DNA of 64,000 bases from an uncultured Gemmatimonadaceae bacterium (GTDB lineage: Bacteria > Gemmatimonadota > Gemmatimonadetes > Gemmatimonadales > Gemmatimonadaceae): assembly GCA_963716745.1 (NCBI GenBank), contig OY970320.1, positions 2,368,001 through 2,432,000 on the forward strand. The letters run 5' to 3'. A program made the position numbers and the translations under genes. Of this stretch, positions 1 through 62,386 are shown in pieces (the first letter of the stretch is position 1; every line of letters starts with the position of its first letter). Under the pieces are notes generated by a model. That model did no database searches, was not told where the DNA came from, and saw only the letters and a program-made list of their open reading frames with translations.

Positions 1-2039
1 ACGCCGACCGATCGTTCTACGCGCGCCGCGCTCCGCGCCACCGCCCTCGCGCTCGCGCTGTTCGGCCTTGTGCCCATGGCGAACTGGCTGAGCGGCGGGC
101 ACGCCGTGATCTGGTGGGGCGCTGCCATGCAGGACTGGCTGTTGTGGGGCGCCGTGACCGTGATCGCGGCGCTCGCGATCGCGCGCGCGGGAGGCGAGGC
201 CGTGAGCGATGCGTGCGCGAACGCTTGGCGGCGTGTGATGGCGCCGAGTGCGCTGCGCTTCGGGGCCATTGTCTTCTGCGTGACGCTGGCGCTGTCGCTC
301 GCGCTCGCGGCGTACTGCTTCGCACGGCAGCCGCACTCGATCGACGAGATGGAGGCGCTCTGGCAGGCGCGCATCTACGCGTCCGGCCATTTCGCGATCG
401 CACCGTTCGCGCACCGCGAATTCGTGTCGATGATGAACGTGATCGACTGGGACCGGTGGTACACGCTGTTCCCCGCCGGCGGGCCGGCGCTGCTGACGGT
501 CGGCATTCTCGCGGGCGCGGCGTGGCTCGTGAATCCGCGTGTGCGCCGCGATCGGCGTGGCGGCGACGTACGCATTCGTGCGGCGCGCGTACGACGAGTC
601 CACCGCGCGCGCGACGGCGATCGTGCTGGCGCTCTCGCCGTTCTTCCTGTTCATGGCGGCGGGCTACCAGAATCACGTGCCGGCGCTCGCCGCGCTCGCG
701 CTCGCGCTCGCGGCGCTCGGCGCGTGGCGCACCGCGGCCACGCCGCGCGCCGCGACGATCGCGAGCGTGGGCGTGGGCTTCGCGCTCGGCGCGCTCGTGG
801 CGATCCGCCCGCTGGACGGCGCGCTCGCGGCGGGAGTGTTCGGGATCTTCCAGGCGGTGAACATTGCGCGGCGCAGCGGCGCCGCGACGTGGAGCTCGCT
901 GGGCGCGCAGGCGCTCGCGGGCGCGGTGCCGGTGGCGTTCTTGCTGCTCGCCAACGCGAAGAGCACCGGGCATCCGTTCACGTTCGCGTACGGCGTGATG
1001 TGGAGCGGCACGTCGATGGGATTCGGCGCGAGTCCATTCGGCGAAGCGCACACGCCCGTGCGCGCGCTCGTGCTGCTGTCGCAGAACCTGATGCGGCTCG
1101 ACCTGTACATGTTCGAGTGGCCAGTGCCCGGGATCCTGCTGGCGCTGTTGACGCTCGTGCTGCTGCGCGCGCCGAGCGATTGGGATCTGCTCGCGGCCGG
1201 GCTCATCGTGGCATTCCTGTGCGGCTACGCGCTGTACTGGCACGAGGGATTCTGGGTGGGGCCGCGATTCATCTATCCCACGGTGCCGCTGTGGGTGCTC
1301 TTCACCGTGCGCGCGCCGGCGCTTGCTCGCGTCGCGTACGGAGAACGTGCTCTACCGGCGGGCTGCGTTCATCTCTGATCCCGCTGTGCATGGTGGCGAG
1401 CATCGTGATGCCATCCACGACAATGGGCGCGCGCATGCGCGCGGAGCGGTACCACGAATCGCTCTGGCAGCTGCGCACCGACATCGCCGCCGAGGCGCAG
1501 GCGGCGGGACTCAAGAACGCGTTGGTGGTGGTGCACGAATCGTGGGGTGCGCGGATCATGGCGCGCATGTGGGCGCTGGGCGTGCCGCGGCGCGACGCGG
1601 AGATGCTGCTGGCGCAGAGCGACGCATGCGCGCTGGAATTGGCGCTGCTCGTGGAGGAATCACCGCCGGGCGGCGATCCGGCGGGACTCGTGGAGCGTCT
1701 GCGCGCCGCGACGCCGCCGAGCGAGCGCGCCGCGCTCGCGCCGCGGCCGGACATCACGTCGGACGGGACGCTGCTGTTCTCCGATCATGGACCGTTCACG
1801 AAGCAATGCGCGGAGAATGTGCTGGCGGACAGCGCGGGGACGTCGTTGTACCCACCGTTCCTGGCGCAGAATCGGGTGACGCGCGAGGGAGAATTAGGAG
1901 GGGACGTGATATACGTGCGCGATCTTGGGCGGGCATAATCTCGCGCTGAGAAAATCGTACGGGGATCGGGTTTGGTATCATTACATCCCGCGTGCATCGC
2001 GCCACCGACTCGAGTCCGGTGTTCGTCAAGTACCACTAA
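1..2039 (+). CDS. Multi-pass membrane protein, ArnT/PMT (GT-C fold) glycosyltransferase-like; 5' end outside window; several apparent frameshifts
   Basis: Frame open from base 1. Hydrophobic helices and a periplasmic DE motif (HSIDEMEALWQA). Coding continues in ORF 539..1378, then in the tail of 70..1938; probable true stop TAA at 2037-2039. Frame breaks near 540, 1370, 1930 and 2000. Confidence 0.6.
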
Positions 2040-2395
2040 CGGCGTGAGTCGCGACCCGAACGACGTGACTCGTACCCCGAACTCCGTGAGTACCGAGTCG
2101 TGCGTGGACCAGATTGTGAGGCGTGACTCGCACCCCGAACCCCGTGAGTCGCGACCCGAACGTACGTGAGTCGTACCCCGAACCCCGTGAGTACCGAGTC
2201 GTGCGTCGAACTGACCGTGAGGCGTGACTCGCGACCCCGACAGTCCGTGAGTCGACTCACGACGTCGTGGGTTGGACTCACGACGTTCGGGGTGCGACGC
2301 ACGCAGTGTGAGGCGGTACGACGCACGACTCGGTACTCACGGAGTTCGGGGTACGAGTCACGGCGTTCGGGGTGCGACGCACGCCGTTCGTAGTT
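2038..2395. repeat. Palindromic composite repeat, family A (21-nt units, about 68-bp inverted arms)
   Basis: Left arm aacggcgtgagtcgcgacccgaacgacgtgactcgtaccccgaactccgtgagtaccgagtcgtgcgt (from 2038) matches the reverse complement of about 2321-2388 with few mismatches. Internal direct copies; right terminus GTAGTT. Confidence 0.92.
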
Positions 2396-3152
2396 AGTCG
2401 CGCACGAGCCGCGCCTGCGCTCCGCTCGTCCACGCCGCCGCGAGGATGTGCCAGAATGCCGCCACTCCATCCCGCCACGTGATCTTCTTCCCCTCTGCGT
2501 ACGTGCGCCCATGGTAGCTGATCGGCACTTCGTACACGCGCGCGCCCATCTGTGAGAGGCGCGCGACGATCTCCGGCTCGATGCCGAAGCGCTCGCGCGT
2601 GAGGTGCATGATCCGGAAACTCTCGCGCGTGAAGGCTTTGTAGCCCACTTCCATGTCGGTCAGGTTCAGGTTGGTGAACATGTTGGACATGAACGTGAGC
2701 GCGCCGTTGCCCATGCGGTGGTAGAAGTACAGCACGCGATGCGCGCCGGCGCCGCCGAAACGGGTGCCGCACACGGCGTCGGCGTGTCCGTCCAGAATGG
2801 GCGCGATCAGCGCGGGAATGTCGGTGGGATCGTACTCGAGGTCGGCGTCCTGGATCACGACGATATCGCCCGTCGCCTCGGCGCGTGCCGTCTGCACCGC
2901 CGAGCCTTTGCCGCGATTCTGCTCGTGCCGCGCGATCTTCATCGTGCCGCCCGACGCTTCGGCGCGCTTGGTCAGCCGCTCGAACGTGCCGTCCTTCGAA
3001 CAATCATCCACCGCGACGATCTGCAGGCTGACGCCGTCGCTCTTGAGGCGCGCGCCGAGCGCCGCGAGCGCATCGAGCGTGCGGTCGATCGTCGCGGCTT
3101 CGTTGTAGCACGGGATCAATACGGAGAGTGTGACCGGAGATGGGCGGATCAA
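2394..3152 (-). CDS. Glycosyltransferase family 2 (polyprenol-phosphate mannose synthase-like)
   Basis: SVLIPCYNE, VDDCSKDGT, NRGKG, IQDADLEYDP and RTYAEGKKI motifs. Confidence 0.92.
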   Translation of the reverse strand: MIRPSPVTLSVLIPCYNEAATIDRTLDALAALGARLKSDGVSLQIVAVDDCSKDGTFERLTKRAEASGGTMKIARHEQNRGKGSAVQTARAEATGDIVVIQDADLEYDPTDIPALIAPILDGHADAVCGTRFGGAGAHRVLYFYHRMGNGALTFMSNMFTNLNLTDMEVGYKAFTRESFRIMHLTRERFGIEPEIVARLSQMGARVYEVPISYHGRTYAEGKKITWRDGVAAFWHILAAAWTSGAQARLVRD

Positions 3153-9030: not shown

Positions 9031-9446
9031 TGCTAGACAACCTGGATCCAAACGAACCGCGGCTGCCGAAGACGCGTGAAACGCCGGCCGAGTCGCGTCC
9101 CCTTGCCGACCGCGAAGTGCCCCTGACGGGCCGCGCCGGCGCTGCGTCCTTGCACGCGTGGCTCGACGGCGAGATGCCCGAGAGCGCGGCGCGTGTTGGC
9201 GACGTGACGCGCGACGTGGACTTCTGGGTGCGCCTGGAAGGCGATCTGAAGGCGCGCCGCCAGATGAGCGCGCCGGCCGACCTGCAGAGCCGGATCATGA
9301 GCGCCATCGGCACTGCGAGCCCGGCTGCGGCGTCGAAGTGGTACGCCAAGAACGTCACGATGACGGTCTCCATGGCGGCCGCGACGTCGATCGGTCTGTT
9401 CTTGTTCGGCCTACTGGCGGGCGTGGCGATTTATTACGCGCGCTGA
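9030..9446 (+). CDS. Putative membrane-anchored anti-sigma factor
   Basis: TAATG overlap with the sigma gene, LHAWLDGE motif, APADL and a C-terminal TM helix. Confidence 0.7.
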   Translation: MLDNLDPNEPRLPKTRETPAESRPLADREVPLTGRAGAASLHAWLDGEMPESAARVGDVTRDVDFWVRLEGDLKARRQMSAPADLQSRIMSAIGTASPAAASKWYAKNVTMTVSMAAATSIGLFLFGLLAGVAIYYAR

Positions 9447-9472
9447 ACTGCCGCTGAGTTCCTTGTACGATC

Positions 9473-9504
9473 GCCGGCCCTCGAAAGGGGGCCGGTTTTC
9501 GTTT
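9473..9504 (+). terminator. Rho-independent terminator
   Basis: gccggccc-tcgaaagg-gggccggt stem-loop followed by tttcgttt. Confidence 0.75.
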
Positions 9505-9511
9505 GAGGAGC

Positions 9512-9626
9512 AACTACGCGGGACGCGGGAATCGGGAATCGCCGCGGGACGCGTGAACGGCGCGTCGGGCCAGCGCGCAGTTCTCGCTCACCGCGGCGAG
9601 TCCCGAGTCCCGCATCCCGCGTAGTT
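9512..9626. repeat. Palindromic repeat, family B (7-nt unit NNCGGGA)
   Basis: aactacgcgggacgcgggaatcgggaatcgccgcgg ... ccgcggcgagtcccgagtcccgcatcccgcgtagtt. Confidence 0.9.
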
Positions 9627-10092
9627 CAGCGCGAAAGCCTTCGCTCCAAGATGATCAGATCCACCCGCGGCCGGTAAAGATCACGCACCCGCCCCGACTC
9701 CGTGAATCGGCACGCAAGAAGCAGCTTGAGCGCGGGGGCGAGCGCCGGGTCGCCGGCCAGCTCGGCGACGAACAGGCGGGTGCCGCGGGCGCGCAGGGCC
9801 TCGCCTGCGGCCGCCATTAGCGCACTGCCGACGCCTCTGCGCCGCCGCGACGGATGCACGCTCACGCCGACAAGCGCGGCCGTTCCCTCGGTGCCCGCCA
9901 CGGCCTCCGCGAGGATCACGCCGGCGAGATCACCATGCTCCGCGAACGCGAGCGCGATATCCGGCGAGTGGTCGAGCCGCTCGCGGGCCTTCGCCAAGTA
10001 TCGCGCGAGCACCACATCGCCCGTGAGCAGGGCGCGCGCGGCGCGATGGTCCTCCGGAGCGAGGGGACGAATGCCCGCCGCGCCGGCGAGGG

Positions 10093-10096
<4 letters not shown>
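9626..10096 (-). CDS. GNAT family N-acetyltransferase
   Basis: VHPSRRRRGVGSALM acetyl-CoA motif. Start uncertain, placed at the overlap with the lpdA stop. Confidence 0.82.
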
Positions 10097-12771
<2,675 letters not shown>

Positions 12772-15792: not shown

Positions 15793-15814
15793 GGTGTGGA
15801 GAGATCCACTCGGC

Positions 15815-15900
15815 ACAGCAGACTTAGACGCTAGACCTAGACGCTAGAAGGCGACGGCGTCTGCTTTCTAGCGTCTAGGTCTAGCGTCTAAGTCTGCTGT
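15815..15900. repeat. Perfect 35-bp inverted repeat, family C (CTAG-rich 13-nt units)
   Basis: acagcagacttagacgctagacctagacgctagaa (15815-15849) and its exact reverse complement (15866-15900), between convergent genes. Confidence 0.95.
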
Positions 15901-15914
15901 ACCGACTGGTGCTC

Positions 15915-16919
15915 TCAGTGCCACCGATATCCCAGCCCCACCCCAAAGAAGTCGGTATTTTCATTGTACGTCGTCACCGTGCGATTCCAGATGAAGCGCG
16001 CGAGCCAGTGCTCGCCGATGTCATAGGCGACGGTGGGTGAGACGAGGCCGGCGACGGCGTCCTTCTTCTTGGTGCCGGGGGGCGGTGAGTAGTCGTAATC
16101 CACGGCGAAGAAGGCGCCGAAACCGAGCGCGAGCGCCACGGGGCCGAACTTCCGGGTGGGCCAGATCTGAACGCCGATCCCGTTCCGGGAGAGGACGGCG
16201 TTGTCACCCTGGTAGATGTAGCTGAACGTCAGGTCGAAGTACTTCCACACGCCGTGACGGTACTCGCCCATGCCGGAGACGCCTTTGGGATCGGCCGAAC
16301 CGCCGTTGGGCACCGTTTGGCCGATGAGGGCCGTGATCTGATTGCCGGTGGTGAAGCTCGTCTGCGCGACCGGCGCGTGATTGTAGACGTCGCCCACGGG
16401 TGCCTGGAGCTGGTAGCCGATGCCAATGAGCACGCTCAGCGCGTCGAAGGTCTTGGGGGGCGCGAGCTCCTCGTTCACCTGGATCCGGTAAACGAAGCGG
16501 TCCTTGCCGAAGTAGGAGATCTGCGCGGTGGTGAGCCACAGCCAGCCCTGGATATCGGAGAAATTGCCGGCGTTCGAGGTATCGTTCGTGGTGTCGTAGA
16601 AGCGGTCTACACCGGTGGCGATCCCGAACGTGAACCGTTTGGTGCCGAAGGACGACCGGATCCCGATCTGCGCCGCGATGCCGTCGCGCGCATGACCGGG
16701 AATGTGGCCGTCATTCACCCAGCCGGTCTCGAAGTACCAGTGCTCGCTGATCCCCTGTTGGTAGTCGAGCCGCCACTGGTAGGTAGTGTTGGCAGCGGCG
16801 GACTGGTCGAACTGCGGGCCGATGAGCCCGGTGAATTCCTGGGCGCCGGCGGTCGCCCCGATCGCGGCCAAACTGACGGTCAAGAAGGCCGATTTCCAGA
16901 GGGAGCTAAGGGAAGGCAT
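15915..16919 (-). CDS. Outer-membrane protein, probably two tandem small beta-barrels
   Basis: Signal peptide ending AGA-Q; two halves with amphipathic strands ending IGIGYQL and VGLGYRW. It is the 3' part of ORF 15915..19451. Confidence 0.72.
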   Translation of the reverse strand: MPSLSSLWKSAFLTVSLAAIGATAGAQEFTGLIGPQFDQSAAANTTYQWRLDYQQGISEHWYFETGWVNDGHIPGHARDGIAAQIGIRSSFGTKRFTFGIATGVDRFYDTTNDTSNAGNFSDIQGWLWLTTAQISYFGKDRFVYRIQVNEELAPPKTFDALSVLIGIGYQLQAPVGDVYNHAPVAQTSFTTGNQITALIGQTVPNGGSADPKGVSGMGEYRHGVWKYFDLTFSYIYQGDNAVLSRNGIGVQIWPTRKFGPVALALGFGAFFAVDYDYSPPPGTKKKDAVAGLVSPTVAYDIGEHWLARFIWNRTVTTYNENTDFFGVGLGYRWH

Positions 16920-19550: not shown

Positions 19551-19554
19551 CGAA

Positions 19555-19694
19555 CGCTAACGGCGGGGCTGGTACCGCGAAGGGCGTCTGTGGACGCTTG
19601 GCGTTGCGGGAACGCGAACTCGCCTGAATGCGCGCAGCTCCCGAACGGCCAGGCGCCAACGCGCCGTTCAGCGGTGCCAGCCCCGCTGTCGGCG
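19555..19694. repeat. Palindromic repeat, family E
   Basis: cgctaacggcggggctggtaccgc ... gcggtgccagccccgctgtcggcg; homologous to 47733-47901. Confidence 0.85.
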
Positions 19695-19777
19695 GTTCGA
19701 AGGCGACGTTAGCCGTTAGGTCAACTGGCGCGCGGAGATCCAGGGGTGCAGAGTCCTAGTCCTATGGCGACAGCGAG

Positions 19778-22191: not shown

Positions 22192-23312
22192 GCGCACGCT
22201 GTCCGTCTTGCGGTACCGTGTATCCTGACGACGTGAAGTTCTGCGCCAAGGACGGCACGAAACTTCTGATGTCGAGCACGCCGTCGCCGACGCCCGCGAC
22301 GCCGCCGCTGGGCGTGACGCCCGTCGGGACACCGGCGGTGATGCCGCCGCCTCCCGCGCCGCGCAGCCCGACGCCGCCGTTCGCCGGATCGCGCACCGTG
22401 GACTTCAGCAAGCTCACGGGGCAGCTGCTGGACAACCGCTATCAGGTCGTGAAGAAGGTGGGCGAAGGCGGCATGAGCTTCGTGTACCTCGCGCAGGACA
22501 CGAACACCGGCGAGAAGGTGGCGATCAAGATCCTGTCGCCGGCGCTGATCAAGGACCCGACCGCCATGGCGCGCCTGCGCCGCGAGGCCGCGCTCGGCGG
22601 GAAGCTGGCGCATCCCAACGTGTGCCACATCATCCGCCTCGGCGAGACGACCGCGGGATTCGTGTACATCGTGATGCCCTTCGTGCAGGGGGAATTGCTC
22701 TGCGACCGCACCGTGCGGATGGGATATTTGCCGCTCGATGTGACGGCCGGCTTCGTGCGCGACATGTGCGCGGGGCTGCACGTGGCGCACGAGCTCGGGA
22801 TCATCCATCGCGACTTGAAGCCGGAGAACATCATGATCGTCGCGCGCCCCGACGGATCGGAGCGCGCCGTGGTGATGGACTTCGGTCTCGCGAAGGAGCG
22901 CGCGATGAGTCCGGAGGTGCAGAAGCTCACCGCCACCGGGATCGTGCTCGGCACGCCGGAGTTCATGAGCCCGGAGCAGCTGCGGGGCAAGCAGCTGGAC
23001 CCGCGCACCGACGTGTACTCGCTCGCGATCATGGTGTACGAGATGCTCACCGGGAAGCTGCCGTTCGAAGGGAGAACGCAGCAGGAGATCATGATCGCGC
23101 GGCTCAAGGGCGATCCGATCCCGATCCGCACCAAGCGCCCCGACCTGAATTTCCCAGCGGGCGTGGAGAAAGTGCTCGCGAAAGCGCTGGCGAGGGAAGC
23201 GGACGGCCGATACTCGGGGACGCTCGAGTTCGGCGAGGCGTTCACCAAGGCGGCGGCGGGGGAGGATGTGCAGGAGGAGGGAGGGGGGATCATGAGTCGG
23301 TTCTTCAAATAA
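22188..23312 (+). CDS. Hanks-type Ser/Thr protein kinase with N-terminal zinc ribbon
   Basis: CPSC..FCAKDG; GEGGMSFV, VAIK, HRDLKPEN, DFG and GTPEFMSPEQ motifs. Confidence 0.95.
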   Translation: MSARCPSCGTVYPDDVKFCAKDGTKLLMSSTPSPTPATPPLGVTPVGTPAVMPPPPAPRSPTPPFAGSRTVDFSKLTGQLLDNRYQVVKKVGEGGMSFVYLAQDTNTGEKVAIKILSPALIKDPTAMARLRREAALGGKLAHPNVCHIIRLGETTAGFVYIVMPFVQGELLCDRTVRMGYLPLDVTAGFVRDMCAGLHVAHELGIIHRDLKPENIMIVARPDGSERAVVMDFGLAKERAMSPEVQKLTATGIVLGTPEFMSPEQLRGKQLDPRTDVYSLAIMVYEMLTGKLPFEGRTQQEIMIARLKGDPIPIRTKRPDLNFPAGVEKVLAKALAREADGRYSGTLEFGEAFTKAAAGEDVQEEGGGIMSRFFK

Positions 23313-23543
23313 CTGCGAACGGCGTGAGTGCCGAGTCGTGCGTGTTCGACCACGAACGGCGTGCGTGCCGAGTCGTGCGTGTTCGACCACGAACGGCGTG
23401 AGTGCCGAGTCGGGCATCGCGACGCACGACGATCGTGCCTGACGCACGACTGGATACTCGCGCATTCAGTGGTCGACGACTCACGACTTGGTACTCACGC
23501 CCCAAGGGGTCGAACACGCACGACTCGGTACGCACGCCGTTCG
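23311..23543. repeat. Palindromic composite repeat, family A variant (37-nt tandem units plus an inverted copy)
   Basis: aacggcgtgMgtgccgagtcgtgcgtgttcgaccacg starts at 23318, 23355 and 23392 (partial); inverted copy at 23508-23543; begins AACTGC. Confidence 0.92.
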
Positions 23544-24721: not shown

Positions 24722-25758
24722 AACGGCAGGGGCGTGAGTGGCGAATGCTGTGCGTGAGTGGGGCGATCGTTCTTGCGCTACCGTGCTCGGCACAGACCTC
24801 GGCGGCGACCACGCGCGCGTATGCGCTCGTCGCGCGCGGCGACACGATGCTTCTCGCCGGCCGGCTCTTCGGCGCGGACTCGGCCTACTACGCGGCGGCG
24901 CGGCTGGCGCCACACGATGGTGCCGTGCGCATGGCGCTGGGCCGCTACATGTTCGGACGCGGCGGCTGGCGCGTGGCGGCGGTGGCCATGGAGGAGGCGC
25001 GCCACTTCGGGGAGGATCCGGCGATCGTCGCCGTCGACATCGCGCCCGTGTACTCGATGCTCGGCATCGCCGATTCACTGCACAAACGCCCAGACGACTG
25101 GGCGGCGCTGGCCGCACTCCCGAGCGCGGCGGTGCCACTCGGCGAGCGGCTGCGCGCCGACTATCTGCACACGTCGCCGCCCGACATGCTGGGGCCCGAT
25201 TCGTCGATCGTGATGTACACCGTGAGCGACAGCCATCTGCTCGGGCGTGTGAAGCTCGCGATCGGCAATGACACTGTGTTCGCCGTGATCGACGCGCGCG
25301 TGCATGGGCTCGTGCTCGACACGTCGTGGATGCGGCGCGATTCCGTGGTGAAACGGTTCGGGCCCAAAGGATCTCGCGATCCCGCGCAGGTGTACGCCGT
25401 CATTTCGCGAGTGAAAATGGGCGACGTCACTTTCGTCAATGCGCCCGCGCGATTCCAGGGATTCAAGACGCCGGGGAACGCACTGATCGGCCTCGACGTG
25501 TTCGGCGCACTCGCGGCGACGTTCGACCCGCGCGTGGGTTATCTCATGGTGCGGAAGGGCGGCCGAGTGGGAAGCACGCTCCCCGGCTGGCGGATCCCGT
25601 CATTCTCCGGCAAGAACGGCGTGATGGTCGTGAAGGGCGACACGATGTTCCCAGTGGGTCATCCGGACGTGCAGCAGTATTTTCGCACCGGGAAATGGAC
25701 GTTTGATGCGAGGCATGGGGCGGTCGTGATCGATTCGGTGGGGGTGGCGGCGAACTAA
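24718..25758 (+). CDS. Exported hypothetical protein (TPR-like N-terminus, retropepsin-like C-terminal region)
   Basis: Signal-like N-terminus, helical repeats, FAVIDAR...ALIGLDVF segment. Confidence 0.6.
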   Translation: MKRQGREWRMLCVSGAIVLALPCSAQTSAATTRAYALVARGDTMLLAGRLFGADSAYYAAARLAPHDGAVRMALGRYMFGRGGWRVAAVAMEEARHFGEDPAIVAVDIAPVYSMLGIADSLHKRPDDWAALAALPSAAVPLGERLRADYLHTSPPDMLGPDSSIVMYTVSDSHLLGRVKLAIGNDTVFAVIDARVHGLVLDTSWMRRDSVVKRFGPKGSRDPAQVYAVISRVKMGDVTFVNAPARFQGFKTPGNALIGLDVFGALAATFDPRVGYLMVRKGGRVGSTLPGWRIPSFSGKNGVMVVKGDTMFPVGHPDVQQYFRTGKWTFDARHGAVVIDSVGVAAN

Positions 25759-25865
25759 CAGCGGGCTGTCGGCTGTTGGCTGTTGCCTTCTACGACGAAG
25801 GGCTCCCCACTTCCGGGAGCCCTTCGTATTCGCAGGCGACAGCCGACAGCCGACAGCCCGCAGTT
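25757..25865. repeat. Palindromic repeat, family D, with nested GAAGGGCTCCC hairpin
   Basis: (ggctgty)x3 left arm and (gacagcc)x3 right arm ending GCAGTT; inner 13-bp stem at 25795-25827. Confidence 0.93.
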
Positions 25866-25874
25866 CGTCGCTGT

Positions 25875-26273
25875 TTATCCCCCGACAGTGAACGTCTTCG
25901 TCGCGAGCACGGCGCCCGTGGCATCCAGCACCGTCACCTTCCACTCGCCGGTCCAGTCGGCGGGGATGGTCTTGCGGCTGTACGTGCGCCATGGCGAGCC
26001 GCTGACGTTGAGCGTCACGGTGTCGGTGTGCGGGCCGTGGCTCCAGACGTGCATGATCTTGCTTCCCGATGCGCCGCTGACGTTGCTCAGCGCGACGAGC
26101 ATGCCGACACTCGCTGGAAACGTCGAGCCGGTGTCGGTAACTGCGCGGTTCTCGAGCGTCTTGCCGACCACGACGTCCGCCATGATGGTCGGGGCCGGCG
26201 CTGAGGCTGGCGCTTGCACGGCCGCCATGAGTGCCACGACGCCGATGAGGGCCAGCAACTTGCCTGTGCGCAT
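25875..26273 (-). CDS. DUF2914-like exported protein
   Basis: Signal peptide; HVW, WRTYSRK and GEWKVTVLD motifs. Confidence 0.8.
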   Translation of the reverse strand: MRTGKLLALIGVVALMAAVQAPASAPAPTIMADVVVGKTLENRAVTDTGSTFPASVGMLVALSNVSGASGSKIMHVWSHGPHTDTVTLNVSGSPWRTYSRKTIPADWTGEWKVTVLDATGAVLATKTFTVGG

Positions 26274-26301
26274 GAGATGATCTCCGAAGAGGTTCGGGGC
26301 A

Positions 26302-26337
26302 GTCTAACGTCTAGGTCTAACGTCTCAGTCTGCAGTT
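26302..26337. repeat. Solo family C arm
   Basis: gtctaacgtctaggtctaacgtctcagtctgcagtt. Confidence 0.88.
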
Positions 26338-27179
26338 CAGCTCCCAAGCCCGTGCAAATACGCGTAGACCGCGGCGATCTCGGAGTCGGTGAATTGCGAG
26401 AACTGCTCCTTCGCCACCTCCGACATCGTCGGGAGCTTCGGATTCCCCGGTGCGACGCCGGTGCGCATCAACGTCGCGAACTCCCCCGGGGAGAATCCCT
26501 TCACGATGCGGAGGTCCGGCGTCGGCATGAATCCGTCGCCCCGCAGCTGCGCGCCATGGCATTCGGTGCAGGTGGTCTGGACGAGGTAGCGGCCGCGCTC
26601 GGCCAACGAATCGGTGGCGGCGGGCAGCGGCAGCCACCCCGAGATGATCTGCGGCTGCGTCCTGAATTTTCCCGCGACGACGCCGAAGCGCCCGAGCGGC
26701 CCCATCGCCAGGCCCGGTTCGAATCCATCGACAGCTGGCACGCTGCGCACGTACGCCAGGATATGAGCGAGATCGGCATCGGTCAGATACTGGAACGTGG
26801 CGGCCGGCATCGCGAACACGCCGCGCCCGCCGGGGCGCATGCCGTGGCGCATGATCTGCGCCAGTTGGGCATCGCTGTACCGTTTGACGCTGTGCGTGAG
26901 GTTGGGCGCGATGAGCCGCGCGACGCCCTTCTGATCGAAGAAGTTCGTGCCCTGCAGTTGCTTGCCATGGCACCCTTCACATCCGCGGATGACCGCCAAT
27001 CGGTGTCCCTCGGCGATCGACGCCGAGTCCGTGGGAAGCACCAGCGCGACGGCCGCGGGCTCGGGCCACACTCTGTTGATCTTCTTCTCGGAGATCAGGT
27101 AGATCGCGGTGTACGCGATGATCGCGAGCACGACCACGCTCGTCGCCGCAATGCGCAGCCATTTCAACGCACCGCTCAT
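26337..27179 (-). CDS. Membrane-anchored diheme cytochrome c
   Basis: N-terminal TM helix; CEGCH and CTECH motifs, each followed by a distal Met. Confidence 0.9.
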   Translation of the reverse strand: MSGALKWLRIAATSVVVLAIIAYTAIYLISEKKINRVWPEPAAVALVLPTDSASIAEGHRLAVIRGCEGCHGKQLQGTNFFDQKGVARLIAPNLTHSVKRYSDAQLAQIMRHGMRPGGRGVFAMPAATFQYLTDADLAHILAYVRSVPAVDGFEPGLAMGPLGRFGVVAGKFRTQPQIISGWLPLPAATDSLAERGRYLVQTTCTECHGAQLRGDGFMPTPDLRIVKGFSPGEFATLMRTGVAPGNPKLPTMSEVAKEQFSQFTDSEIAAVYAYLHGLGS

Positions 27180-29134: not shown

Positions 29135-29238
29135 CGAACGACGACGGCGGAAGGGCGGACTGTCGGCTGTCGGCTGTTGCGTGCGAACTGCTCGACCGCC
29201 GGGCTGGCGACAGCCGACAGCCAACAGCCCGTCGTTCG
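29135..29238. repeat. Palindromic repeat, family D
   Basis: gcggactgtcggctgtcggctgttgc ... gcgacagccgacagccaacagcccgt. Confidence 0.9.
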
Positions 29239-29242
29239 AGTA

Positions 29243-29278
29243 GTCTAACGTCCCAGTCTAGAGTCTAAGTCTGCAGTT
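29243..29278. repeat. Solo family C arm
   Basis: gtctaacgtcccagtctagagtctaagtctgcagtt. Confidence 0.82.
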
Positions 29279-30485: not shown

Positions 30486-30612
30486 CTGCAGGATATCGGC
30501 TGTCTGGGCCGCAGGGACATTCGGGGCCTCCAGAGTTACTTCGGGGGCCCTTCTTGCTTCCTATAGAGGGGAGCGGCAAGCTCCTCGCGACCCAACTCAA
30601 TCGGAGATCTTC

Positions 30613-33961: not shown

Positions 33962-34059
33962 GCTTTGGGACTGCTGGAGGTTGTGGCCGTACAAGCACTT
34001 ACGAGTGGGGACTCGGAAGGTCACATGGAAAGATAATCGGTGCGCAGCGAAAAACGGCT

Positions 34060-34150
34060 TTGACAGGATTAACATGATGAACCTGCAGGATTAACGTGAT
34101 GAAGCTGATGGAACGGCGCTCCATCAGCTTCATCATGTTGATCCTGTCAA
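34060..34150. repeat. AT-rich palindromic repeat, family F (22-nt direct repeat plus one inverted copy)
   Basis: caggattaacRtgatgaaSctg at 34064 and 34086; inverted copy at 34125-34146; outer ttgacagg/cctgtcaa. Confidence 0.9.
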
Positions 34151-34157
34151 GTTTTTC

Positions 34158-35362: not shown

Positions 35363-35637
35363 TGTTAACTGCACGGCATCACCAGGGTGCTTACGGTTGC
35401 AGTCAACAGTAAACAGTCACGAGTGACTGCCAGTCTACAGTCAACAGTCAACAGGTCACAGAAATCTGCTGATCGTACTGGCAGGGGTCTCGGTCTCGAT
35501 TCGGCACCGGTGAATCAAGGCGTGCGTGGAGCGGTTTTCTGTGACCTGTTGACTGTCGACTGTCGACTGGCGGGTACTCGTGACTGTTTTCTGTTCACTG
35601 CGCGCCGAAGTGCCCTGGTGATGCTGTGCAGTTAACA
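35363..35637. repeat. Long palindromic element, family G (about 105-bp arms, CAGTCAA heptamers)
   Basis: tgttaactgcacggcatcaccaggg...caacaggtcacagaaa and its inverted copy tttctgtgacctgttg...ccctggtgatgctgtgcagttaaca. Confidence 0.95.
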
Positions 35638-35704: not shown

Positions 35705-36196
35705 ATGGCCGGCAATAATGGCATCATGAAAGAAGGCATCATCGCCGGCTTCATCGGCGCGATGACCGTGGCCGTCTGGTTCCTCATCGTCGATATCATC
35801 GCCGCCCATCCTTTCTACACTCCCAACATCCTCGGCGCCGGCCTCGCCAGTATCCTGGGCGGTGCGGCGCTGCCGGGGATATTCTGGAACGTCGCGGTCT
35901 ATACGGTGTTCCACTTCGCGGCCTTCATGGCGGCGGGCGTTCTGCTTGCGTGGATCTTCCATCGGGCCGAGACGGAGCCTAGCGTGCTCGTGATCTTCGT
36001 GCTGCTCTTCATCATCTTCGAACTCGGATCGGTGGGTCTCATCGCGCTGCTCGCCGAGGCCGGAATGCGATCGCTCGCGTGGTATCAGATCGCCGCGGGG
36101 AACGTGCTCGCGTCGGTCGCGATGGGTTGGTATCTGTGGAAAGCGCACCCGGCGCTGCGGTCGGAACTGGAGAACGCGATCGAGGGAGGAGGATAA
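35705..36196 (+). CDS. Hypothetical 4-TM membrane protein
   Basis: Hydrophobic helices; TAATG overlap with the next gene. Confidence 0.75.
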   Translation: MAGNNGIMKEGIIAGFIGAMTVAVWFLIVDIIAAHPFYTPNILGAGLASILGGAALPGIFWNVAVYTVFHFAAFMAAGVLLAWIFHRAETEPSVLVIFVLLFIIFELGSVGLIALLAEAGMRSLAWYQIAAGNVLASVAMGWYLWKAHPALRSELENAIEGGG

Positions 36197-36834
36197 TGGT
36201 GCGTGTGCATCGGACATCGGGCATCGGCATGACTGCACTCGTGTTCACGGCGAGTCTCGCGTTGCACGCACAGGCCGCTGATACATCCCGGCCGTCGGAT
36301 CTGCGAAAAGGGCCGTATGGCAGCATCGGGCCCGCCTACGCTTCGGCGCCCACGAAGGCGACGGTGAACGGGTCGTCGATCTCGGACACGCAGACCGGCA
36401 TCAGCGTCTACCTGGGGGCGGGTGTCGCACTCAACCCGCACTTCCGGCTGGGCGGCGAATGGGATCATCTGTTCGTGACCGATCTGTTCAGCGCCGAGGT
36501 CGGCAACGGGCAGAACGGGGGCATCGATTTCCTGTCGGCGGCCATCACGTACTATCCGAGTCTCACCAACGAGTTCTGGGTCAAGGGGAATCTCGGGTGG
36601 AGTAAGCTCCAAGTGACGGGCTCCTTTACCGGCGCATCCTCTGAGTCGGGCTTCGCCGGCGGGATCGGGGTGGGCTATGACTTCCGGCTCGGTCACTCGA
36701 ATTACGTGCTCGTCCCGTTCGCGAACTATTTCGCCCAATTCTCGGCGTCGGGGCTCAACGGGTACCTGCAGAACCAGGGCGACGGCAAAGTCTCCATGTT
36801 CCAGGTCGGCGTCGGCTTCGGCTACCACCACTGA
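36196..36834 (+). CDS. Outer-membrane beta-barrel protein (8-stranded, OmpA-TM-like)
   Basis: Signal peptide AHAQA-type, amphipathic strands, terminal VGVGFGY. Confidence 0.75.
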   Translation: MVRVHRTSGIGMTALVFTASLALHAQAADTSRPSDLRKGPYGSIGPAYASAPTKATVNGSSISDTQTGISVYLGAGVALNPHFRLGGEWDHLFVTDLFSAEVGNGQNGGIDFLSAAITYYPSLTNEFWVKGNLGWSKLQVTGSFTGASSESGFAGGIGVGYDFRLGHSNYVLVPFANYFAQFSASGLNGYLQNQGDGKVSMFQVGVGFGYHH

Positions 36835-46642: not shown

Positions 46643-47734
46643 CGGGGAGGTTCTTCCTCCCGGGGCCCACCGAAGTGCGGCCGGAGATCCTCTCGGCGAT
46701 GGGGCGGCGGATGATCCCGCATCGCGTCCGCGGCGATGCGCGAGATCCTCGCGCGCGTGCATCCGAGGCTGCAGCCGATCATCGGCACCGCGCGGCCGGT
46801 GTATGTCGCGAGCAGCTCAGCGACCGGCATGATGGAGGCGGCGGTGCGCTGCGGCACGCGCCAGCGTGTGCTCGCGCTGGTGTGCGGCGCGTTCGGCGAG
46901 CGCTTCGCGAAGATCGCGGAAGCATGCGGCCGCGACGTGACGCGCGTGACCGTGCCGCCGGGCGATGTGGTGACGGTGGAGCAGCTGGCGATCGCGCTCG
47001 AACATGGATCGTACGACGCGGTGACGTGCGTGCACGTGGAGACATCGACGGGCGTCGTGTCCGACGTGGAAGCATACGCGCGGATCACGCGCGAGCGGCC
47101 GGAGCTCGTGCTCATCGTGGACGCGGTGGCGAGCGCGGGCGGGATGCCGGTGCGCATGGACGCGTGGGGCGCGGATGTGGTGGTGTTCGCGTCGCAGAAG
47201 GCGCTGGCGGTGCCGCCGGGCCTCGCGTTCGCCGCGTGCTCCGAGCGCGCGATGGAGCGGTGTCTGTCGCTGCCGGGACGGGGGATCTACCTCGACTTCG
47301 CGCGCTATGATGAAATGTGGCGGAGAGGCGAGACGCTCGGCACGCCGGCGCTGAGTGTGGTGTTCGCGCTGGACGAGCAATTGGATCGCATCGAGGCGGA
47401 GGGGCTTGAGCACCGGTTCGAGCGCCATGCGGCGATGCGAGCGGCGGTCACGAAATGGGTCGCGGCGGCACATGCGCGGCACGTGCCAGTCTCGTTCCTT
47501 GCGGCCCAGGAGTTACGAGCGCCGACGGTGAGTTGTTTGCGCTTCGACGGGGACTGTGCGGATCTCGTGGAGCGGCTGAGACTGCGAGGCTATGTGATCG
47601 GGGCGGGATATGGGGCGCTCGCGAAGGAAACGATCCGCATCGGACACATGGGGGATCACACGGTCGCGGAGACTGATGCGTTGCTGGGTGCGATGACTGA
47701 ATCGATCATCGAGGGGGTCTCGCTCACGACGTAA
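46624..47734 (+). CDS. Class V aminotransferase (serine-pyruvate/alanine-glyoxylate type); apparent frameshift near 46725
   Basis: FLPGPT..IPHR N-terminus in another frame; HVETSTG, VDAVAS, SQKAL and RIGHMG motifs. Confidence 0.9.
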
Positions 47735-47901
47735 CTGCGTGGTGGTACCGCTGACGGCGGGACTGGTACCGCTAACGGCGGGATTGGCGTTGGATACGGC
47801 TGGGGGCCGGCGCGCATGCGCCGGCCCCCATTGAATCATCCAACGCTAACGCGCCGTTTGCGGTACCAGTTCCGCCGTCTGCGGTACCAGTCCCGCCGTT
47901 A
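47733..47901. repeat. Palindromic repeat, family E (21-nt units) with nested GC hairpin
   Basis: tggtaccgctRacggcgggaY x2 (47743-47784), two inverted copies (47860-47901), inner 13-bp stem at 47801-47830. Confidence 0.93.
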
Positions 47902-55057: not shown

Positions 55058-55101
55058 GCCACTAAACGATTGCACTCATCGATCTTGCACAAGCCCGCGC
55101 C

Positions 55102-55137
55102 TTCTAACGTCTAGGTCTAGCGTCTAGGTCTGCAGTT
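55102..55137. repeat. Solo family C arm
   Basis: ttctaacgtctaggtctagcgtctaggtctgcagtt. Confidence 0.9.
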
Positions 55138-56647
55138 ACCTCGGCTCTCGCTTGATCACTTTTCCGGGAAAGGCCCCGCTCGCCTTCCCGTTGTCGTACA
55201 CGACCATGCCGTTCACCCACACGGTGCGGATCCCCGAACTCACCGCGTGCGGGTCCGCCAGCGTCGCGCGGTCGGCCACGGTGCCGGGATCGAACAGCAC
55301 GAGATCCGCGTACATCCCAACGCTCACCCGCCCGCGATCCTTGATCCCCATGTTCGCGGCGGCCAGCGTGGTCATCTTGCGAACGGCCTCCTCGAGCGAC
55401 AGCACGTGCCGCTCGCGCACGTACACGCCGAGCACGCGCGTGAACGCGCCGTAGCCGCGCGGATGCTTGCCGTCGAGTTCGCCGTCGGACGAGATGTTGC
55501 TGTACGGCCATTGCAGAATGGCCTCGATGTCCGGCTCGATCATGCTCGTGCCGATCACGGTCTCCTCGCCGTCGCCGCCCGGCACTTTGCCCGCCGCCTC
55601 GGCGTCGCGGATCAGCGTCATGAGCGCGGTGGTGTCGTCCTCGTGCCGCAGCACCGCGATCTGCTGCAGTGTCTTGCCATCGTACGAGCGGTTCGGGCCG
55701 TAGTGCGTGAGCAGCAGGCCATCGCTCGGCGACACCTGCTCGAGCGCGAACGCCGCGGATTTCCGGTTGTCGAAATCGCGCGCGGGGAAGAGCACGGTGA
55801 GCGTGCTTTGCCAATACGCGTACGGATAGACATCGGCGGTGATGTTGACGCCCTCCGCGCGCGCACGGTTGAGCCGCGCGATGAGCGTGTCGTGCATCCC
55901 CCAGATCGCCTTCATCGCGAGCTTGGTGTGCGACACTTGCACCGGGATGGAGTCGTGGCGGCCGATCGAGATGATCTCGTTGATCGCCGCCCAGAAATAG
56001 CGGTCCTCGCTGCGCACGTGACTGATGTAGCGGCCGTTCAGCTTGGCGAGCGGCTTGTTGAGCGCGAACAGCTCGGTGCTGTCGGAGTAGATGCCCGGAT
56101 CGTACTCGAGCCCGCTCGAGAGGCCTAGCGCGCCGGCCTTCATTTCCTGGTCGAGCAGCTCAGCCATCTTCTCCACTTCTGCCGGTGTGGAGACGCGGCG
56201 GAAATCGGCGCCGAGCACTTTATCGCGCAGCGTGCCGTGCCCCACGTAGCTCGCGATGTTCACTGCGGCGGGCGTCTTCTCGAGCTTCTCGAAGAATCCC
56301 GCGAGCGGGAACACGGAGCCGCCATCCTGGCCGACGATCACCGTGGTGACGCCCTGGCTGACATCCGCGAGCGCGTCGCGATGCTCGAAGATCTGGTCGT
56401 CGGCGTGGCTGTGCGTGTCGATGAATCCGGGCGCGAGCACGAGCCCGCTCGCGATGATCACCGTTTCGCCCTGGCGTTGGTGGAGCTGCCCGATGTCGGC
56501 GATTCGGTCGCCGATGATGCGCACGTCCTGGATCACCGCGGGGCGGCCCGTGCCGTCGAGCACGCGCGCGCCCTCGATGAGCACCGATTGCGAAGCGGCC
56601 GTGGATGCCGCGCAGAGCATGATCGCCGCGATCCAGCGCATGATCAT
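55136..56647 (-). CDS. N-acyl-D-amino-acid deacylase (D-aminoacylase) family amidohydrolase, exported
   Basis: APGFIDTHSH, SHVRSE, HPRGYGAFTR and ADLVLFDP motifs; signal peptide; ATGA overlap with the kinase stop. Confidence 0.92.
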   Translation of the reverse strand: MIMRWIAAIMLCAASTAASQSVLIEGARVLDGTGRPAVIQDVRIIGDRIADIGQLHQRQGETVIIASGLVLAPGFIDTHSHADDQIFEHRDALADVSQGVTTVIVGQDGGSVFPLAGFFEKLEKTPAAVNIASYVGHGTLRDKVLGADFRRVSTPAEVEKMAELLDQEMKAGALGLSSGLEYDPGIYSDSTELFALNKPLAKLNGRYISHVRSEDRYFWAAINEIISIGRHDSIPVQVSHTKLAMKAIWGMHDTLIARLNRARAEGVNITADVYPYAYWQSTLTVLFPARDFDNRKSAAFALEQVSPSDGLLLTHYGPNRSYDGKTLQQIAVLRHEDDTTALMTLIRDAEAAGKVPGGDGEETVIGTSMIEPDIEAILQWPYSNISSDGELDGKHPRGYGAFTRVLGVYVRERHVLSLEEAVRKMTTLAAANMGIKDRGRVSVGMYADLVLFDPGTVADRATLADPHAVSSGIRTVWVNGMVVYDNGKASGAFPGKVIKREPR

Positions 56648-60751: not shown

Positions 60752-60878
60752 GGCGCAATATCGCACCCCTGTGAAGGGTCGGGAACGGGGCCACTACCGA
60801 ACGGCAACCCCCGGGGGCCGTCCGGTGACCTATCATCGACAGCGCAGGCCAATTCCTTCCACTGCTCGAGAGGCTCCT

Positions 60879-62291
60879 ATGCGGTCCACCGCACTGATGC
60901 TCGGTTTGTTCACCGTCGCGCTGGGCGCGCAGGCACAGGTCGTCACGCCCGACGCGACGCCGGCGCCGACGCCGCGCTCCTCCAATTACCGGTTCGTGCG
61001 CTCCGACGACATGGGCGACCGGGCGGTGCTCGGCATCAATACGTCGGGCGGCGGCAAGCGCGACACGCTCGGCTTGCTGATCACCAGCGTGACGCCGAAC
61101 GGGCCCGCGGAGAAGGCGGGGCTCACGGAGGGCGACCGGATCGTCTCCGTGAACGGCACATCGCTCAAGGTCGCGCCGGCCAATGCGGGCGAGCCGGAGA
61201 TGAACGGCCTGATGTCGCGCCGTCTGGTGCGCACGATGTCAGACCTGAAGGCGGGCGATGAAGTGACGCTCGTGGTCTACAGCAACGGCAGCACGAAGAC
61301 GGTGAAGGTGAAGACCATCGCGATGGACGATCTGAACGAGGGCAGCATGAAGAAGAAGTCCAGCGACCGCGCGGCGGTGGGCCTGGGCTTCGGCGGCGGA
61401 AGCATTCGCGACACGCTCGGACTGTTCGTGGAGAGCGTGACCGCGGGCGGGCCGTCGGACAAGGCGGGGATCCAGGAAGGGATGCGCATCGCCGCGATCA
61501 ATGGCGTGGACATGCGCGTGCCGGCCGCGGATGCCGCGGACGCCGAGGATGGTTCGCTGGTGTGGGCGAAGCAGGGCCGCTTCACGCGCACGCTGAGCGC
61601 GCTCACTCCCGGCGACGTCGTGGAACTGAAGGTGTGGACGGACGGGAGCTACAAGACCTTCAAGGTCACGACCGTGAAGTCGAGTGACCTGTACGGGAAG
61701 AACTCGAACGCGTGGAGCAAGTATGCGGAGGATATGGCGAACATGTCGCGGCGCGTGAACGTTGCGATCGCCCCAATGCCGCCAATGCCTCCCATGGCGC
61801 CAATGGCGCCAATGGCTCCGATGGCGCCCATGCGCATGAACTATGATTACGCTCCGGGTTCCACGATGACGTGCAACACGATCGGGGACGGCACGGTGAT
61901 CTGCCGGAGCAACGGCGGCAACTCGAAGGCCGCGGCGCGCGCACGCTCGAACTCGAGCTACGGCTATGGCTCGTCAGCGGCGCCCAGGGCGGCGGTCATG
62001 AGCGACGACGACAACAGCGACTCCGACATCAATTTTCCCGGCCTGCGCATGACCACCGTGACCGACGAGCTCGCGAGCTATTTCGGCGCGGGCAGTGAGA
62101 ACGGACTGCTGGTGCTCGAAGCGTCCGATGAATGGTCGCCCGTGAAGACGGGCGACGTCGTGCTCACGCTGAACGGGCGCGCCGTGGTGAAGAACAAGAC
62201 GACGTCAGTCTCGCTCGACACGGGCCGCGACAACACGTTCGTGGTGCTGCGCAAGGCGAAGAAGATCACGGTGGTGGTGAAGGCGCACTAA
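60879..62291 (+). CDS. Exported multi-PDZ domain protein
   Basis: Signal peptide; PDZ motifs GPAEKAGLTEGDRIVSVNG, GPSDKAGIQEGMRIAAING and GDVVLTLNG. Confidence 0.88.
   Translation: MRSTALMLGLFTVALGAQAQVVTPDATPAPTPRSSNYRFVRSDDMGDRAVLGINTSGGGKRDTLGLLITSVTPNGPAEKAGLTEGDRIVSVNGTSLKVAPANAGEPEMNGLMSRRLVRTMSDLKAGDEVTLVVYSNGSTKTVKVKTIAMDDLNEGSMKKKSSDRAAVGLGFGGGSIRDTLGLFVESVTAGGPSDKAGIQEGMRIAAINGVDMRVPAADAADAEDGSLVWAKQGRFTRTLSALTPGDVVELKVWTDGSYKTFKVTTVKSSDLYGKNSNAWSKYAEDMANMSRRVNVAIAPMPPMPPMAPMAPMAPMAPMRMNYDYAPGSTMTCNTIGDGTVICRSNGGNSKAAARARSNSSYGYGSSAAPRAAVMSDDDNSDSDINFPGLRMTTVTDELASYFGAGSENGLLVLEASDEWSPVKTGDVVLTLNGRAVVKNKTTSVSLDTGRDNTFVVLRKAKKITVVVKAH
61773..61832 (+). repeat. Coding 9-nt tandem repeat (PMP/PMA x7)
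   Basis: PMPPMPPMAPMAPMAPMAPM. Confidence 0.85.
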
Positions 62292-62386
62292 CGACAACTG
62301 CGGGCTGTTGGCTGTCGGCTGTCGGAAACTGCGAACCCATGCTCGCAGTTAGCGACAGTCGACAGCCGACAGCCCGCCGTTGTCGT
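62291..62386. repeat. Palindromic repeat, family D, with nested AACTGCGA..TCGCAGTT hairpin
   Basis: acgacaactgcgggctgttggctgtcggctgtcg ... cgacagtcgacagccgacagcccgccgttgtcgt fills the gap between two convergent stop codons. Confidence 0.93.

What the first reader, a model, noticed from the sequence alone, without database searches (positions are those of the whole stretch)
2038..62386. Multi-family palindromic repeat system with a shared AACT(G/A)C terminus anchored on stop codons
Seen: at least seven sequence-distinct palindromic families share one architecture, namely short tandem units in each arm, inverted arms and a variable centre. They are A (2038, 23311), B (9512), C (15815, 26302, 29243, 55102), D (25757, 29135, 62291), E (19555, 47733), F (34060) and G (35363). 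Copies from A, B, C, D, E and G carry AACT(G/A)C or GYAGTT at or near an end. That hexamer overlaps the stop codon of the neighbouring gene at 2394-2396, 9444-9446, 9626-9628, 23310-23312, 26337-26339, 30483-30485, 47732-47734 and 55136-55138, with the variant AACAGC at 25756. Inference: unrelated internal sequences with a common end and a stop-codon address point to one targeting or processing machinery acting in trans, MITE/REPIN-like and sparing ORFs. The GTAG/GCAG tetramer sits at the 3' outer end, opposite to canonical GTAG REP polarity. No transposase is present in the window.
Basis: partly seen in the sequence, partly recalled or inferred. Interest (0 to 1): 0.85.

Follow-up and report, generated by a model that had tools for sequence, protein, structure and literature searches.

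The report
Swappable hairpin repeats at stop codons
In this Gemmatimonadaceae genome about a dozen families of DNA hairpin repeats sit hard against stop codons, and in related species the same spots often hold a different family with a rewritten stop codon, which points to repeats that overwrite one another in place instead of jumping into new sites.

Summary
AACTRC overlaps 84 of 2925 called stops genome-wide (6 expected). It is found at 57 of 255 genes next to a repeat arm and at 10 of 2011 others. It is not a fixed terminus but a degenerate, 7-bp-phased cap (AACNRC), also found at inner arm ends.

The repeats are gene-less copies of cassettes that bracket four-helix-bundle (PF05635) or GxxExxY nuclease genes. 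The scan found this before elsewhere in this genome. No RAYT or reverse transcriptase was found.

New here: orthologous sites in three congeners behave as fixed slots whose family is replaced in place. Centres are sometimes kept, junctions fall in the cap or inside the stop, and the stop codon changes in 17 of 31 swaps against 43 of 399 controls. Arms and their cognate gene swap together.

Stop-abutting heptamer hairpins occur in other genera, and in Xanthomonas in print, without the cap. So the cap is not a universal targeting signal. It is native to the GxxExxY-linked family and has spread across families in this genus.

Best reading: element-into-element conversion, bounded by selection at the stop codon. 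The enzyme is not shown.

The parts
2032..2396 (.). Family A palindrome (21-nt units); right end TAACTAC overlaps the stop of a glycosyltransferase gene (- strand)
   Evidence: related family O at the same site in G005 with TGA
9444..9451 (+). Orphan cap on the stop of ORF 9030-9446, followed by a terminator-like hairpin (about 9472-9503); not the end of element B
9512..9628 (.). Family B palindrome (GGGA-N-N-C heptamers, the Xanthomonas GGGAATC type); AACTAC at both ends, right one on the TGA of a GNAT-like gene
   Evidence: a different family at this site in G005
15799..15916 (.). Family C palindrome, no AACTRC cap, between convergent genes
   Evidence: family F at this site in G005
19551..19711 (.). 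Family E palindrome directly after the gyrA stop (ends approximate)
   Evidence: related family N in G004 (TAA) and G005 (TGA)
23310..23543 (.). Family A palindrome; left cap TAACTGC on the kinase stop
25756..25877 (.). Family D arms around a terminator-like central hairpin between convergent stops; in G005 family C arms surround the same centre
26297..26339 (-). Half family C arm, cap on TGA of a cytochrome c gene; full palindrome in G004 and G005
29150..29278 (.). Family D palindrome followed by a half C arm; G005 has one full C palindrome here
30483..30510 (+). Decayed half D arm with cap on TAA, then a terminator-like hairpin
   Evidence: intact D arm in G002 and G004
34053..34160 (.). Family F (nonamer type, GxxExxY-linked) palindrome; G-type arm in G002, M in G004, F in G005
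35363..35637 (.). Family G palindrome (CAGTCAA units), AACTGC at both ends, not on stops
36194..36230 (+).
47732..47901 (.). Family E palindrome filling the gap between convergent stops; family N in G004 and G005
55099..55138 (-). Half family C arm, cap on TAA of an amidohydrolase gene
62289..62389 (.). Family D palindrome; G002 and G004 carry 2 and 4 tandem left arms, each opening with TAACTGC

Best explanation
The repeats are gene-less members of a transposase-free system of short-unit hairpin cassettes. Each family has a cognate small protein gene (four-helix-bundle PF05635, or GxxExxY nuclease for F and J) carried in the loop of a few copies. Shown: hairpins occupy fixed gene-end slots, and a slot's family, its cargo gene and often its stop codon are replaced in place between species. 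Inferred: an existing hairpin is the target. It is cut or nicked (host SbcCD-like nuclease or GxxExxY) and repaired by copying from another hairpin, mostly a nearby one, and the second arm is matched by fold-back copying, so a central hairpin can survive. Tracts run outward until they meet coding sequence; events that damage the ORF are purged, so repeated rounds leave the arm flush with the stop. An end beginning (G/A)AAC still gives TAA, TGA or TAG when the junction falls after the T, TA or TG of a stop. The AACNRC cap is therefore stop-proof, stays at the slot when the family changes, and has hitch-hiked from family to family in this genus, probably from family F, where it is native.
For: Slots: in G005, of 345 orthologous gaps (700 nt or less) 36 keep the family, 11 hold a related family, 11 an unrelated one, 14 are G000-only, 16 G005-only and 257 empty; an unrelated family fills a G000 slot in 11 of 25 cases vs 16 gains in 273 empty gaps (OR 12.6, p=8e-7; co-directional gaps alone p=1.5e-5). 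Stop codon changes at an unchanged position: 17 of 31 swaps, 20 of 117 same-family, 43 of 399 element-free. Identity breaks a median 2 nt into the stop, while codon positions 1-2 of the last five codons stay at 0.92. Crisp C/D swaps with junctions in AACTGC (genome 1068417 at both ends, 2124925). Centres kept while arms change (window 25756; genome 3084697, 572779). Cassettes at one address differ in arms and protein together: H/Q 60% and D/C 65% protein identity vs 96-99% for four same-arm orthologues; in a tree of 29 rows the proteins group by arm family. Gene-less G000 hairpins sit where relatives have a gene-bearing cassette (3 addresses). Same-family neighbours 133 vs 47 expected, falling from 41% under 2 kb to 10% beyond 100 kb. 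Four-fold sites in the last 20 codons diverge 1.7-2 times faster next to arms. The two arms of one element are more alike than arms of neighbours (p=4e-4). No G-U bias on the sense strand (134 vs 164). SbcD-like and SbcC-like gene pair present. The cap is native to family F in two other genera (54 and 19 copies).
Against: No cut, intermediate or enzyme activity is shown. Within a family, neighbours under 5 kb are barely more alike than distant copies (+0.01, p=0.08), so 'nearby donor' rests on family-level clustering only. Copies do not cluster round their cognate cassette except family G (10 of 37 within 100 kb). True gains and losses exist (30 of 345 gaps in G005, some of them unrecognised families), so new sites do arise, and this model does not explain how. 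Unrelated-family swaps are few in the closer genomes (G002 3, G004 2; G004 p=0.048, and none in co-directional gaps). Rows from G002 and G004 are not independent. The relatives are 63-83% complete assemblies with indel errors. Family labels come from my own k-mer and motif library.
Confidence: 0.55

Rival explanations
1. One dedicated cutter, the GxxExxY PD-(D/E)xK nuclease, recognises AACNRC at the base of a hairpin. Four-helix-bundle families acquired the cap to be mobilised by it in trans.
For: The cap is a fixed part of family F, which brackets GxxExxY genes in G000, G002 and G005, with the same T/G/A degeneracy in two other genera. The G000 gene is intact, with a D...ELK motif. The cap brackets arms on both sides in direct orientation.
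Against: Four-helix-bundle cassettes abut stops without any cap in other genera. PF05635 was found in 84 of 121 genomes of the phylum but GxxExxY in only 34 of 101; G066 and G140-type arrays are uncapped. Family J, also GxxExxY-linked, has 0 of 35 capped arms. The F-plus-B test rests on one genome.
Confidence: 0.22
2. The slots are fixed by host selection, not by targeting. Hairpins at certain gene ends act on transcription termination, mRNA stability or ribosome release, any family will do, and independent insertions survive only at those ends.
For: 92 of 138 convergent gaps are filled vs 170 of 801 co-directional and 55 of 214 divergent. Third codon positions are C-poor upstream of arms (0.24-0.27 vs 0.36-0.42), and the loss goes mostly to G, unlike deamination. 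Xanthomonas GGGAATC repeats keep their position between species (83%, PMC4692102 section 14). Recalled, not from a call: E. coli REPs close to a stop codon can stall ribosomes.
Against: No G-U preference on the transcribed strand. Selection alone does not explain junctions inside the stop codon, retained centres, hybrid arms, runs of one family, or cassette genes replaced with their arms. The two readings can both hold.
Confidence: 0.18
3. No mobility at all: heptamer arrays arise by polymerase slippage and drift between look-alike sequences, and the cap is a by-product of local base bias.
For: Unit numbers vary between orthologues; slippage of heptamers is the hypothesis quoted in PMC4692102 and PMC4679880.
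Against: Swapped sites converge on complex 40-70 nt family consensuses found genome-wide; cargo genes change with arms; AACNRC is not enriched away from arms (observed/expected 0.7-1.3).
Confidence: 0.05

Closest known systems
GGGAATC heptamer repeats of Xanthomonas and GGGGA(C/T)T of Nostoc (Rehm et al. 2015, PMC4692102; abstract, passages, sections 14 and 16 and a supplement search read)
   Same: Same unit type as family B; G-rich arm on the sense strand within 50 bp of, or overlapping, the stop; inverted pairs; conserved positions. Their repeat 15 lies 6 nt after the bccP stop and overlaps the start of XCC0516, which is the best solved-structure match of our four-helix-bundle protein (2GSC, E=1.6e-15).
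   Different: One family per genome, read as G-quadruplex repeats. In the parts read: no link to the protein, no shared cap, no replacement of one family by another.
REP/REPIN with RAYT (Di Nocera 2013, PMC3733652, passages; Bertels and Rainey 2011, PMC3116915, passages)
   Same: Hundreds of extragenic inverted doublets, several families per genome, each with a repeat-flanked gene; GTAG ends often supply the TAG stop of the neighbouring ORF.
   Different: No Y1 transposase found; tetramer polarity reversed; arms built of tandem 7-, 9- or 21-nt units; REPINs are described as randomly spread and excising, whereas here occupied sites are overwritten.
Ssn nucleases with NTS/SRM hairpins (PMC11893778, passages)
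   Same: Small gene flanked by its own hairpin repeat, many gene-less copies, each protein paired with its own repeat.
   Different: Ssn is a GIY-YIG ssDNA nuclease; here the genes are PF05635 or PF13366, and the only GIY-YIG match lies in a long frame.
TAACTGA heptamer repeats of Beggiatoaceae (MacGregor 2015, PMC4679880, abstract and passages)
   Same: Heptamer one base from TAACTGC; 13 sets overlap an upstream stop; the author notes that the sequence itself restricts it to gene ends.
   Different: Direct repeats, mostly just upstream of start codons, not hairpin ends.
Avd of diversity-generating retroelements (PMC10053308, passages)
   Same: PF05635 resembles Avd structurally.
   Different: No reverse transcriptase found in G000; no template/variable repeat pair was looked for.

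Membership tests
REP/REPIN-RAYT | Extragenic inverted doublets forming hairpins, in several families | tested here: met
   341 of 378 inverted-repeat loci mainly non-coding, 13 clusters; folds
REP/REPIN-RAYT | GTAG (or CGTC) tag at the 5' outer end of each unit | tested here: not met
   5' outer end is AACNRC; GTAG/GCAG falls at the 3' end
REP/REPIN-RAYT | RAYT (Y1 HUH, PF01797) gene flanked by the repeats | tested here: not met
   0 matches in G000, 89.8% complete; relatives not searched for it
MITE | Target-site duplication at empty/filled sites | tested here: inconclusive
   None seen by eye in the empty/filled pairs printed (long pairs not printed); flanks are diverged
MITE | Cognate transposase sharing the terminal repeats | tested here: not met
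   Long loops hold PF05635, PF13366 or ordinary genes; only Y1, RVT_1 and GIY-YIG were searched genome-wide
Xanthomonas-type GGGAATC heptamer repeats | G-rich heptamer array on the sense strand just after stops, often as an inverted pair | tested here: met
   Family B: 50 of 167 arms within 25 nt of a stop; the unit is abundant in 9 other genomes of 80 sampled
Xanthomonas-type GGGAATC heptamer repeats | G-quadruplex formation | not testable with these tools
   Most other families here lack GGG runs
Ssn/NTS | Stand-alone GIY-YIG gene flanked by the hairpin | tested here: not met
   Single match inside a 1198-codon frame
DGR (Avd) | Reverse transcriptase | tested here: not met
   0 RVT_1 matches in G000
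PF05635 four-helix bundle (cargo) | Profile match above the curated cut-off | tested here: met
   6 of 7 matches over the cut-off; all 7 bracketed by inverted arms

The most novel reading that the evidence does not exclude
A transposase-free homing system in which hairpin cassettes overwrite one another at gene ends. A shared cutter (GxxExxY, reading the AACNRC cap, or host SbcCD) opens occupied slots. Family-specific Avd-like four-helix-bundle proteins bind their own arms and bias which family wins, so that families sweep along the chromosome and rewrite stop codons. This would explain the widespread, unexplained bacterial heptamer repeats and give PF05635 a function.
Probability: 0.3. Interest if true: 0.9.

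Novelty: new variant of a known kind. Interest (0 to 1): 0.66.

Why it matters
Heptamer repeats beside stop codons have been catalogued in Xanthomonas, cyanobacteria and Beggiatoaceae without a mechanism, and PF05635 has no known function outside retroelements. This genus offers about twelve protein-repeat pairs, orthologous slots with before/after states, and junctions at single-base resolution. Binding specificity, cleavage and conversion can therefore be tested directly. If right, it is a mode of repeat spread (replacement of resident elements) distinct from REP/RAYT insertion, and a source of fast change in stop codons and gene 3' ends.

Tried and rejected
Chi-like or restriction-type motif: AACTGC shows no replichore bias (674/652) and no excess away from arms; AACTAC is somewhat skewed (278/183). 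RNA-strand selection on pairing: no sense-strand G-U excess. Deamination as cause of the C-poor halo: C>T is not raised (2 of 88 vs 55 of 1208), C>G and C>A are; numbers are small. Elements donating a new, earlier stop: the stop position shifted in 1 of 32 swaps, 15 of 132 same-family, 37 of 436 element-free and 9 of 39 one-sided sites, so truncation is not the rule. Spread from the cognate cassette: not seen except in family G. Rfam: no match; no tRNA in the window. RAYT, reverse transcriptase, stand-alone GIY-YIG: not found. Other cargo: six further bracketed ORFs were ordinary genes or had no Pfam match. Sequencing runs: no RNA holder listed; no reads were laid, so variation within the species is untested. 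GxxExxY flanks in other genera were not read. One search used wrong coordinates and was discarded. Outputs were cut in the middle; I use only what was shown. Literature: nine searches found no paper linking PF05635 or GxxExxY to these repeats or describing family replacement. Elhai 2008 on cyanobacterial small repeats was not held. That family G's unit resembles cyanobacterial STRR3 is recalled and untested.


Full report
Source. The window is bases 2368001-2432000 of a 3.29-Mb, 67% G+C, single-contig genome, 89.8% complete. Named relatives of its proteins are Gemmatimonadaceae. I called 2925 genes with my own dicodon model. It misses some genes (for example sucB in the window) and includes some false ORFs, so later tests used score and length filters.

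The observation. All named palindromes and all nine stop overlaps are in the sequence. Genome-wide the hexamer overlaps 57 of 379 TAA stops and 27 of 1764 TGA stops, 84 against 6.4+/-2.4 in shuffled flanks. An inverted-repeat scan gave 378 loci in 13 clusters of 8-44 members. A k-mer mask gave 805 arms in 12 families, 747 of them non-coding. The excess is due to the arms: 57 of 255 arm-adjacent genes against 10 of 2011 arm-free genes, and TAA is the stop in 88 of 255 against 202 of 2011. The outer end of an arm lies within 25 nt of a stop in 258 cases and of a start in 30, and 92 of 138 convergent gaps are filled.

What the terminus is. It is AACNRC, not AACTRC. Counts at the outer end were H 73/92, F 43/61, D 43/71, A 37/70, E 45/85, C 41/82, B 57/167, I 13/50, G 10/69 (undercounted, since my anchor lies well inside the true end), L 2/22 and J 0/35, against 2.6% of background 20-mers. 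It peaks at +1/+2 (98) and +8/+9 (36) from the stop, so it behaves as a 7-bp unit. It also peaks at the inner end of arms in the same orientation. Only 91 of 344 outer caps overlap a stop, and it is not enriched away from arms. In the 21-nt families (A, E, I) it is the start of the repeat unit itself.

Cargo genes. Seven PF05635 four-helix-bundle genes or remnants sit in loops of families H, B, D, G, A, I and E. GxxExxY genes sit with F and J. No Y1 transposase, reverse transcriptase or stand-alone GIY-YIG was found. In a tree of 29 genus proteins (31 labelled, two not recovered by my motif) the proteins group by arm family; kin share labels, so the tree alone does not show co-evolution. Earlier notes of this scan had reached the cassette link from other windows of this genome.

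The new result: slots are overwritten. I compared orthologous gaps in three congeners (G002, G004, G005, about 93, 91 and 85% identical). In the window none of the sites shown was cleanly empty, but many held another family. At 25756 G005 has family C arms round the same central hairpin that carries D arms in G000, G002 and G004. At 34060 the four genomes hold F, a G-type arm, M and F. At 9512 G005 has an unrelated family. Over 345 gaps shared with G005: 36 same family, 11 related family, 11 unrelated family, 14 only G000, 16 only G005, 257 empty; gaps over 700 nt were dropped. An unrelated family thus fills a G000 slot far more often than an empty gap is gained (OR 12.6, p=8e-7). The closer genomes give few unrelated swaps (3 and 2). 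Some one-sided rows are unrecognised families and some are true gains or losses; I saw no target duplication in those printed.

Where the junctions fall. At an unchanged position the stop codon differs in 17 of 31 swapped ends, 20 of 117 same-family ends and 43 of 399 element-free ends (G002 and G004 rows overlap). Identity breaks a median 2 nt into the stop in swaps against 7 in controls, while the last codons stay intact. In the crispest swap (genome 1068417, C against D) both junctions lie in AACTGC. Hybrids of C and D with a retained centre also occur. Cassettes obey the same rule. Seven shared addresses hold 26 of 32 cassette loci, and at five of them the arm family differs between genomes. 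Where it does, the protein differs too (H/Q 60%, D/C 65%, B1/B2 76%, against 96-99% for four same-arm pairs and 74-83% for two same-arm pairs with the distant G005). Three gene-less G000 hairpins sit where relatives have a gene-bearing cassette.

Local signature. Neighbouring loci share a family 133 times against 47 expected. The chance falls from 41% under 2 kb to 10% beyond 100 kb. Four-fold sites in the last 20 codons diverge 1.7-2 times faster next to arms in all three comparisons, and those codons are C-poor. Against the nearby-donor step: within a family, near copies are hardly more alike than far ones (p=0.08). Arm mismatches show no G-U bias on the transcribed strand. An SbcD-like gene (below the family cut-off) followed by an SbcC-like ATPase is present.

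Is the cap universal? No. In other genera of the phylum 20 of 23 located PF05635 genes (29 loci, 6 not located) have inverted short-unit arms, and 0 of 40 ends carry AACNRC. In named genomes, several phyla among them, it was 21 of 27 and 2 of 42, both ends of one Gemmatimonadaceae locus. Heptamer arrays start 0-6 nt from stops in G066, G140, G008 and G017 without a cap. Stop-overlapping AACTRC was 17/257, 12/343 and 11/566 in the congeners against 3 of 448 in the other samples. The B heptamer is abundant in 9 other genomes of 80 sampled, but capped in 49 of 84 matches in this genus against 16 of 854 in seven of the others (G008 was not tested). The cap is native to family F, the GxxExxY-linked family, in two other genera. 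The one other genome with both F and B has more capped B arms (11 of 141, p=5e-4).

Mechanism. Shown: fixed slots, in-place replacement of arms, cargo and stop codon, junctions in the cap or stop, local runs, raised local divergence. Inferred: resident hairpins are cut and repaired from other hairpins, fold-back copying matches the second arm, and selection stops tracts at the coding edge. A (G/A)AAC end still yields a stop after T, TA or TG, which would explain why this cap survives at stops and spreads between families (0.55). Rivals: a dedicated GxxExxY cutter reading the cap (0.22), host selection on gene-end hairpins with independent insertions (0.18), slippage alone (0.05). The first three are not exclusive.

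Comparison with what is known. Stop-adjacent, inverted, G-rich heptamer arrays are in print for Xanthomonas. Their supplement places one at the start of XCC0516, the four-helix-bundle protein that best matches ours, a link not made in the parts I read. REP ends that supply stop codons are in print, as are gene-plus-own-repeat systems (RAYT, Ssn). It works like these but fails REP, Ssn and DGR membership tests. I found no paper on the PF05635 or GxxExxY link, or on family replacement at fixed slots; subscription papers and bioRxiv supplements are not covered.

Verdict. A real feature and a new variant of a known kind. The stop-codon hexamer is a lineage-specific cap rather than a universal address. 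The surprising part is the in-place replacement of families, cargo genes and stop codons. Interest 0.66.

Noticed in passing
window 12200-12255 and 12403-12434: Half C and half D arms lie inside the sucB reading frame (11362-12771, - strand), apparently in linker regions.
   Followed up: no
window 10093-12771: lpdA lacks its first ~70 residues in one frame and sucB matches only to residue 361, suggesting frameshifts; probably long-read indel errors, as with the G000 E cassette, the second GxxExxY gene and the SbcD-like gene.
   Followed up: no
window 7160-8272 (+): Solitary D12-class N6-adenine DNA methyltransferase (PF02086) between a CoA transferase and an ECF sigma factor; target unknown.
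   Followed up: no
window 61773-61833: 9-bp coding repeat (Pro-Met-Ala-like) in a PDZ-domain protein.
   Followed up: no
G000 2754580-2755940 (L169): Family B arms bracket the EF-Tu gene; other ordinary genes are bracketed by B, C or D arms.
   Followed up: partly
G000 family L (e.g. 555001-555399, 3110124-3116606) and family K: Palindromes with almost no AACNRC cap and no cargo gene found; L has 200-300 nt loops and is not seen near stops.
   Followed up: no
G000 2198511-2199904 and 2354847-2355886: Nested arms: a C arm outside a D arm on both sides, the inner one opening with its own TAACTGC at 2198511, as if one family were laid over the other.
   Followed up: partly
L231-L258: Four-helix-bundle genes in Clostridia, Acidobacteriota, Chloroflexota and Armatimonadota are also bracketed by inverted heptamer arms, mostly with the G-rich strand pointing inward.
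   Followed up: partly
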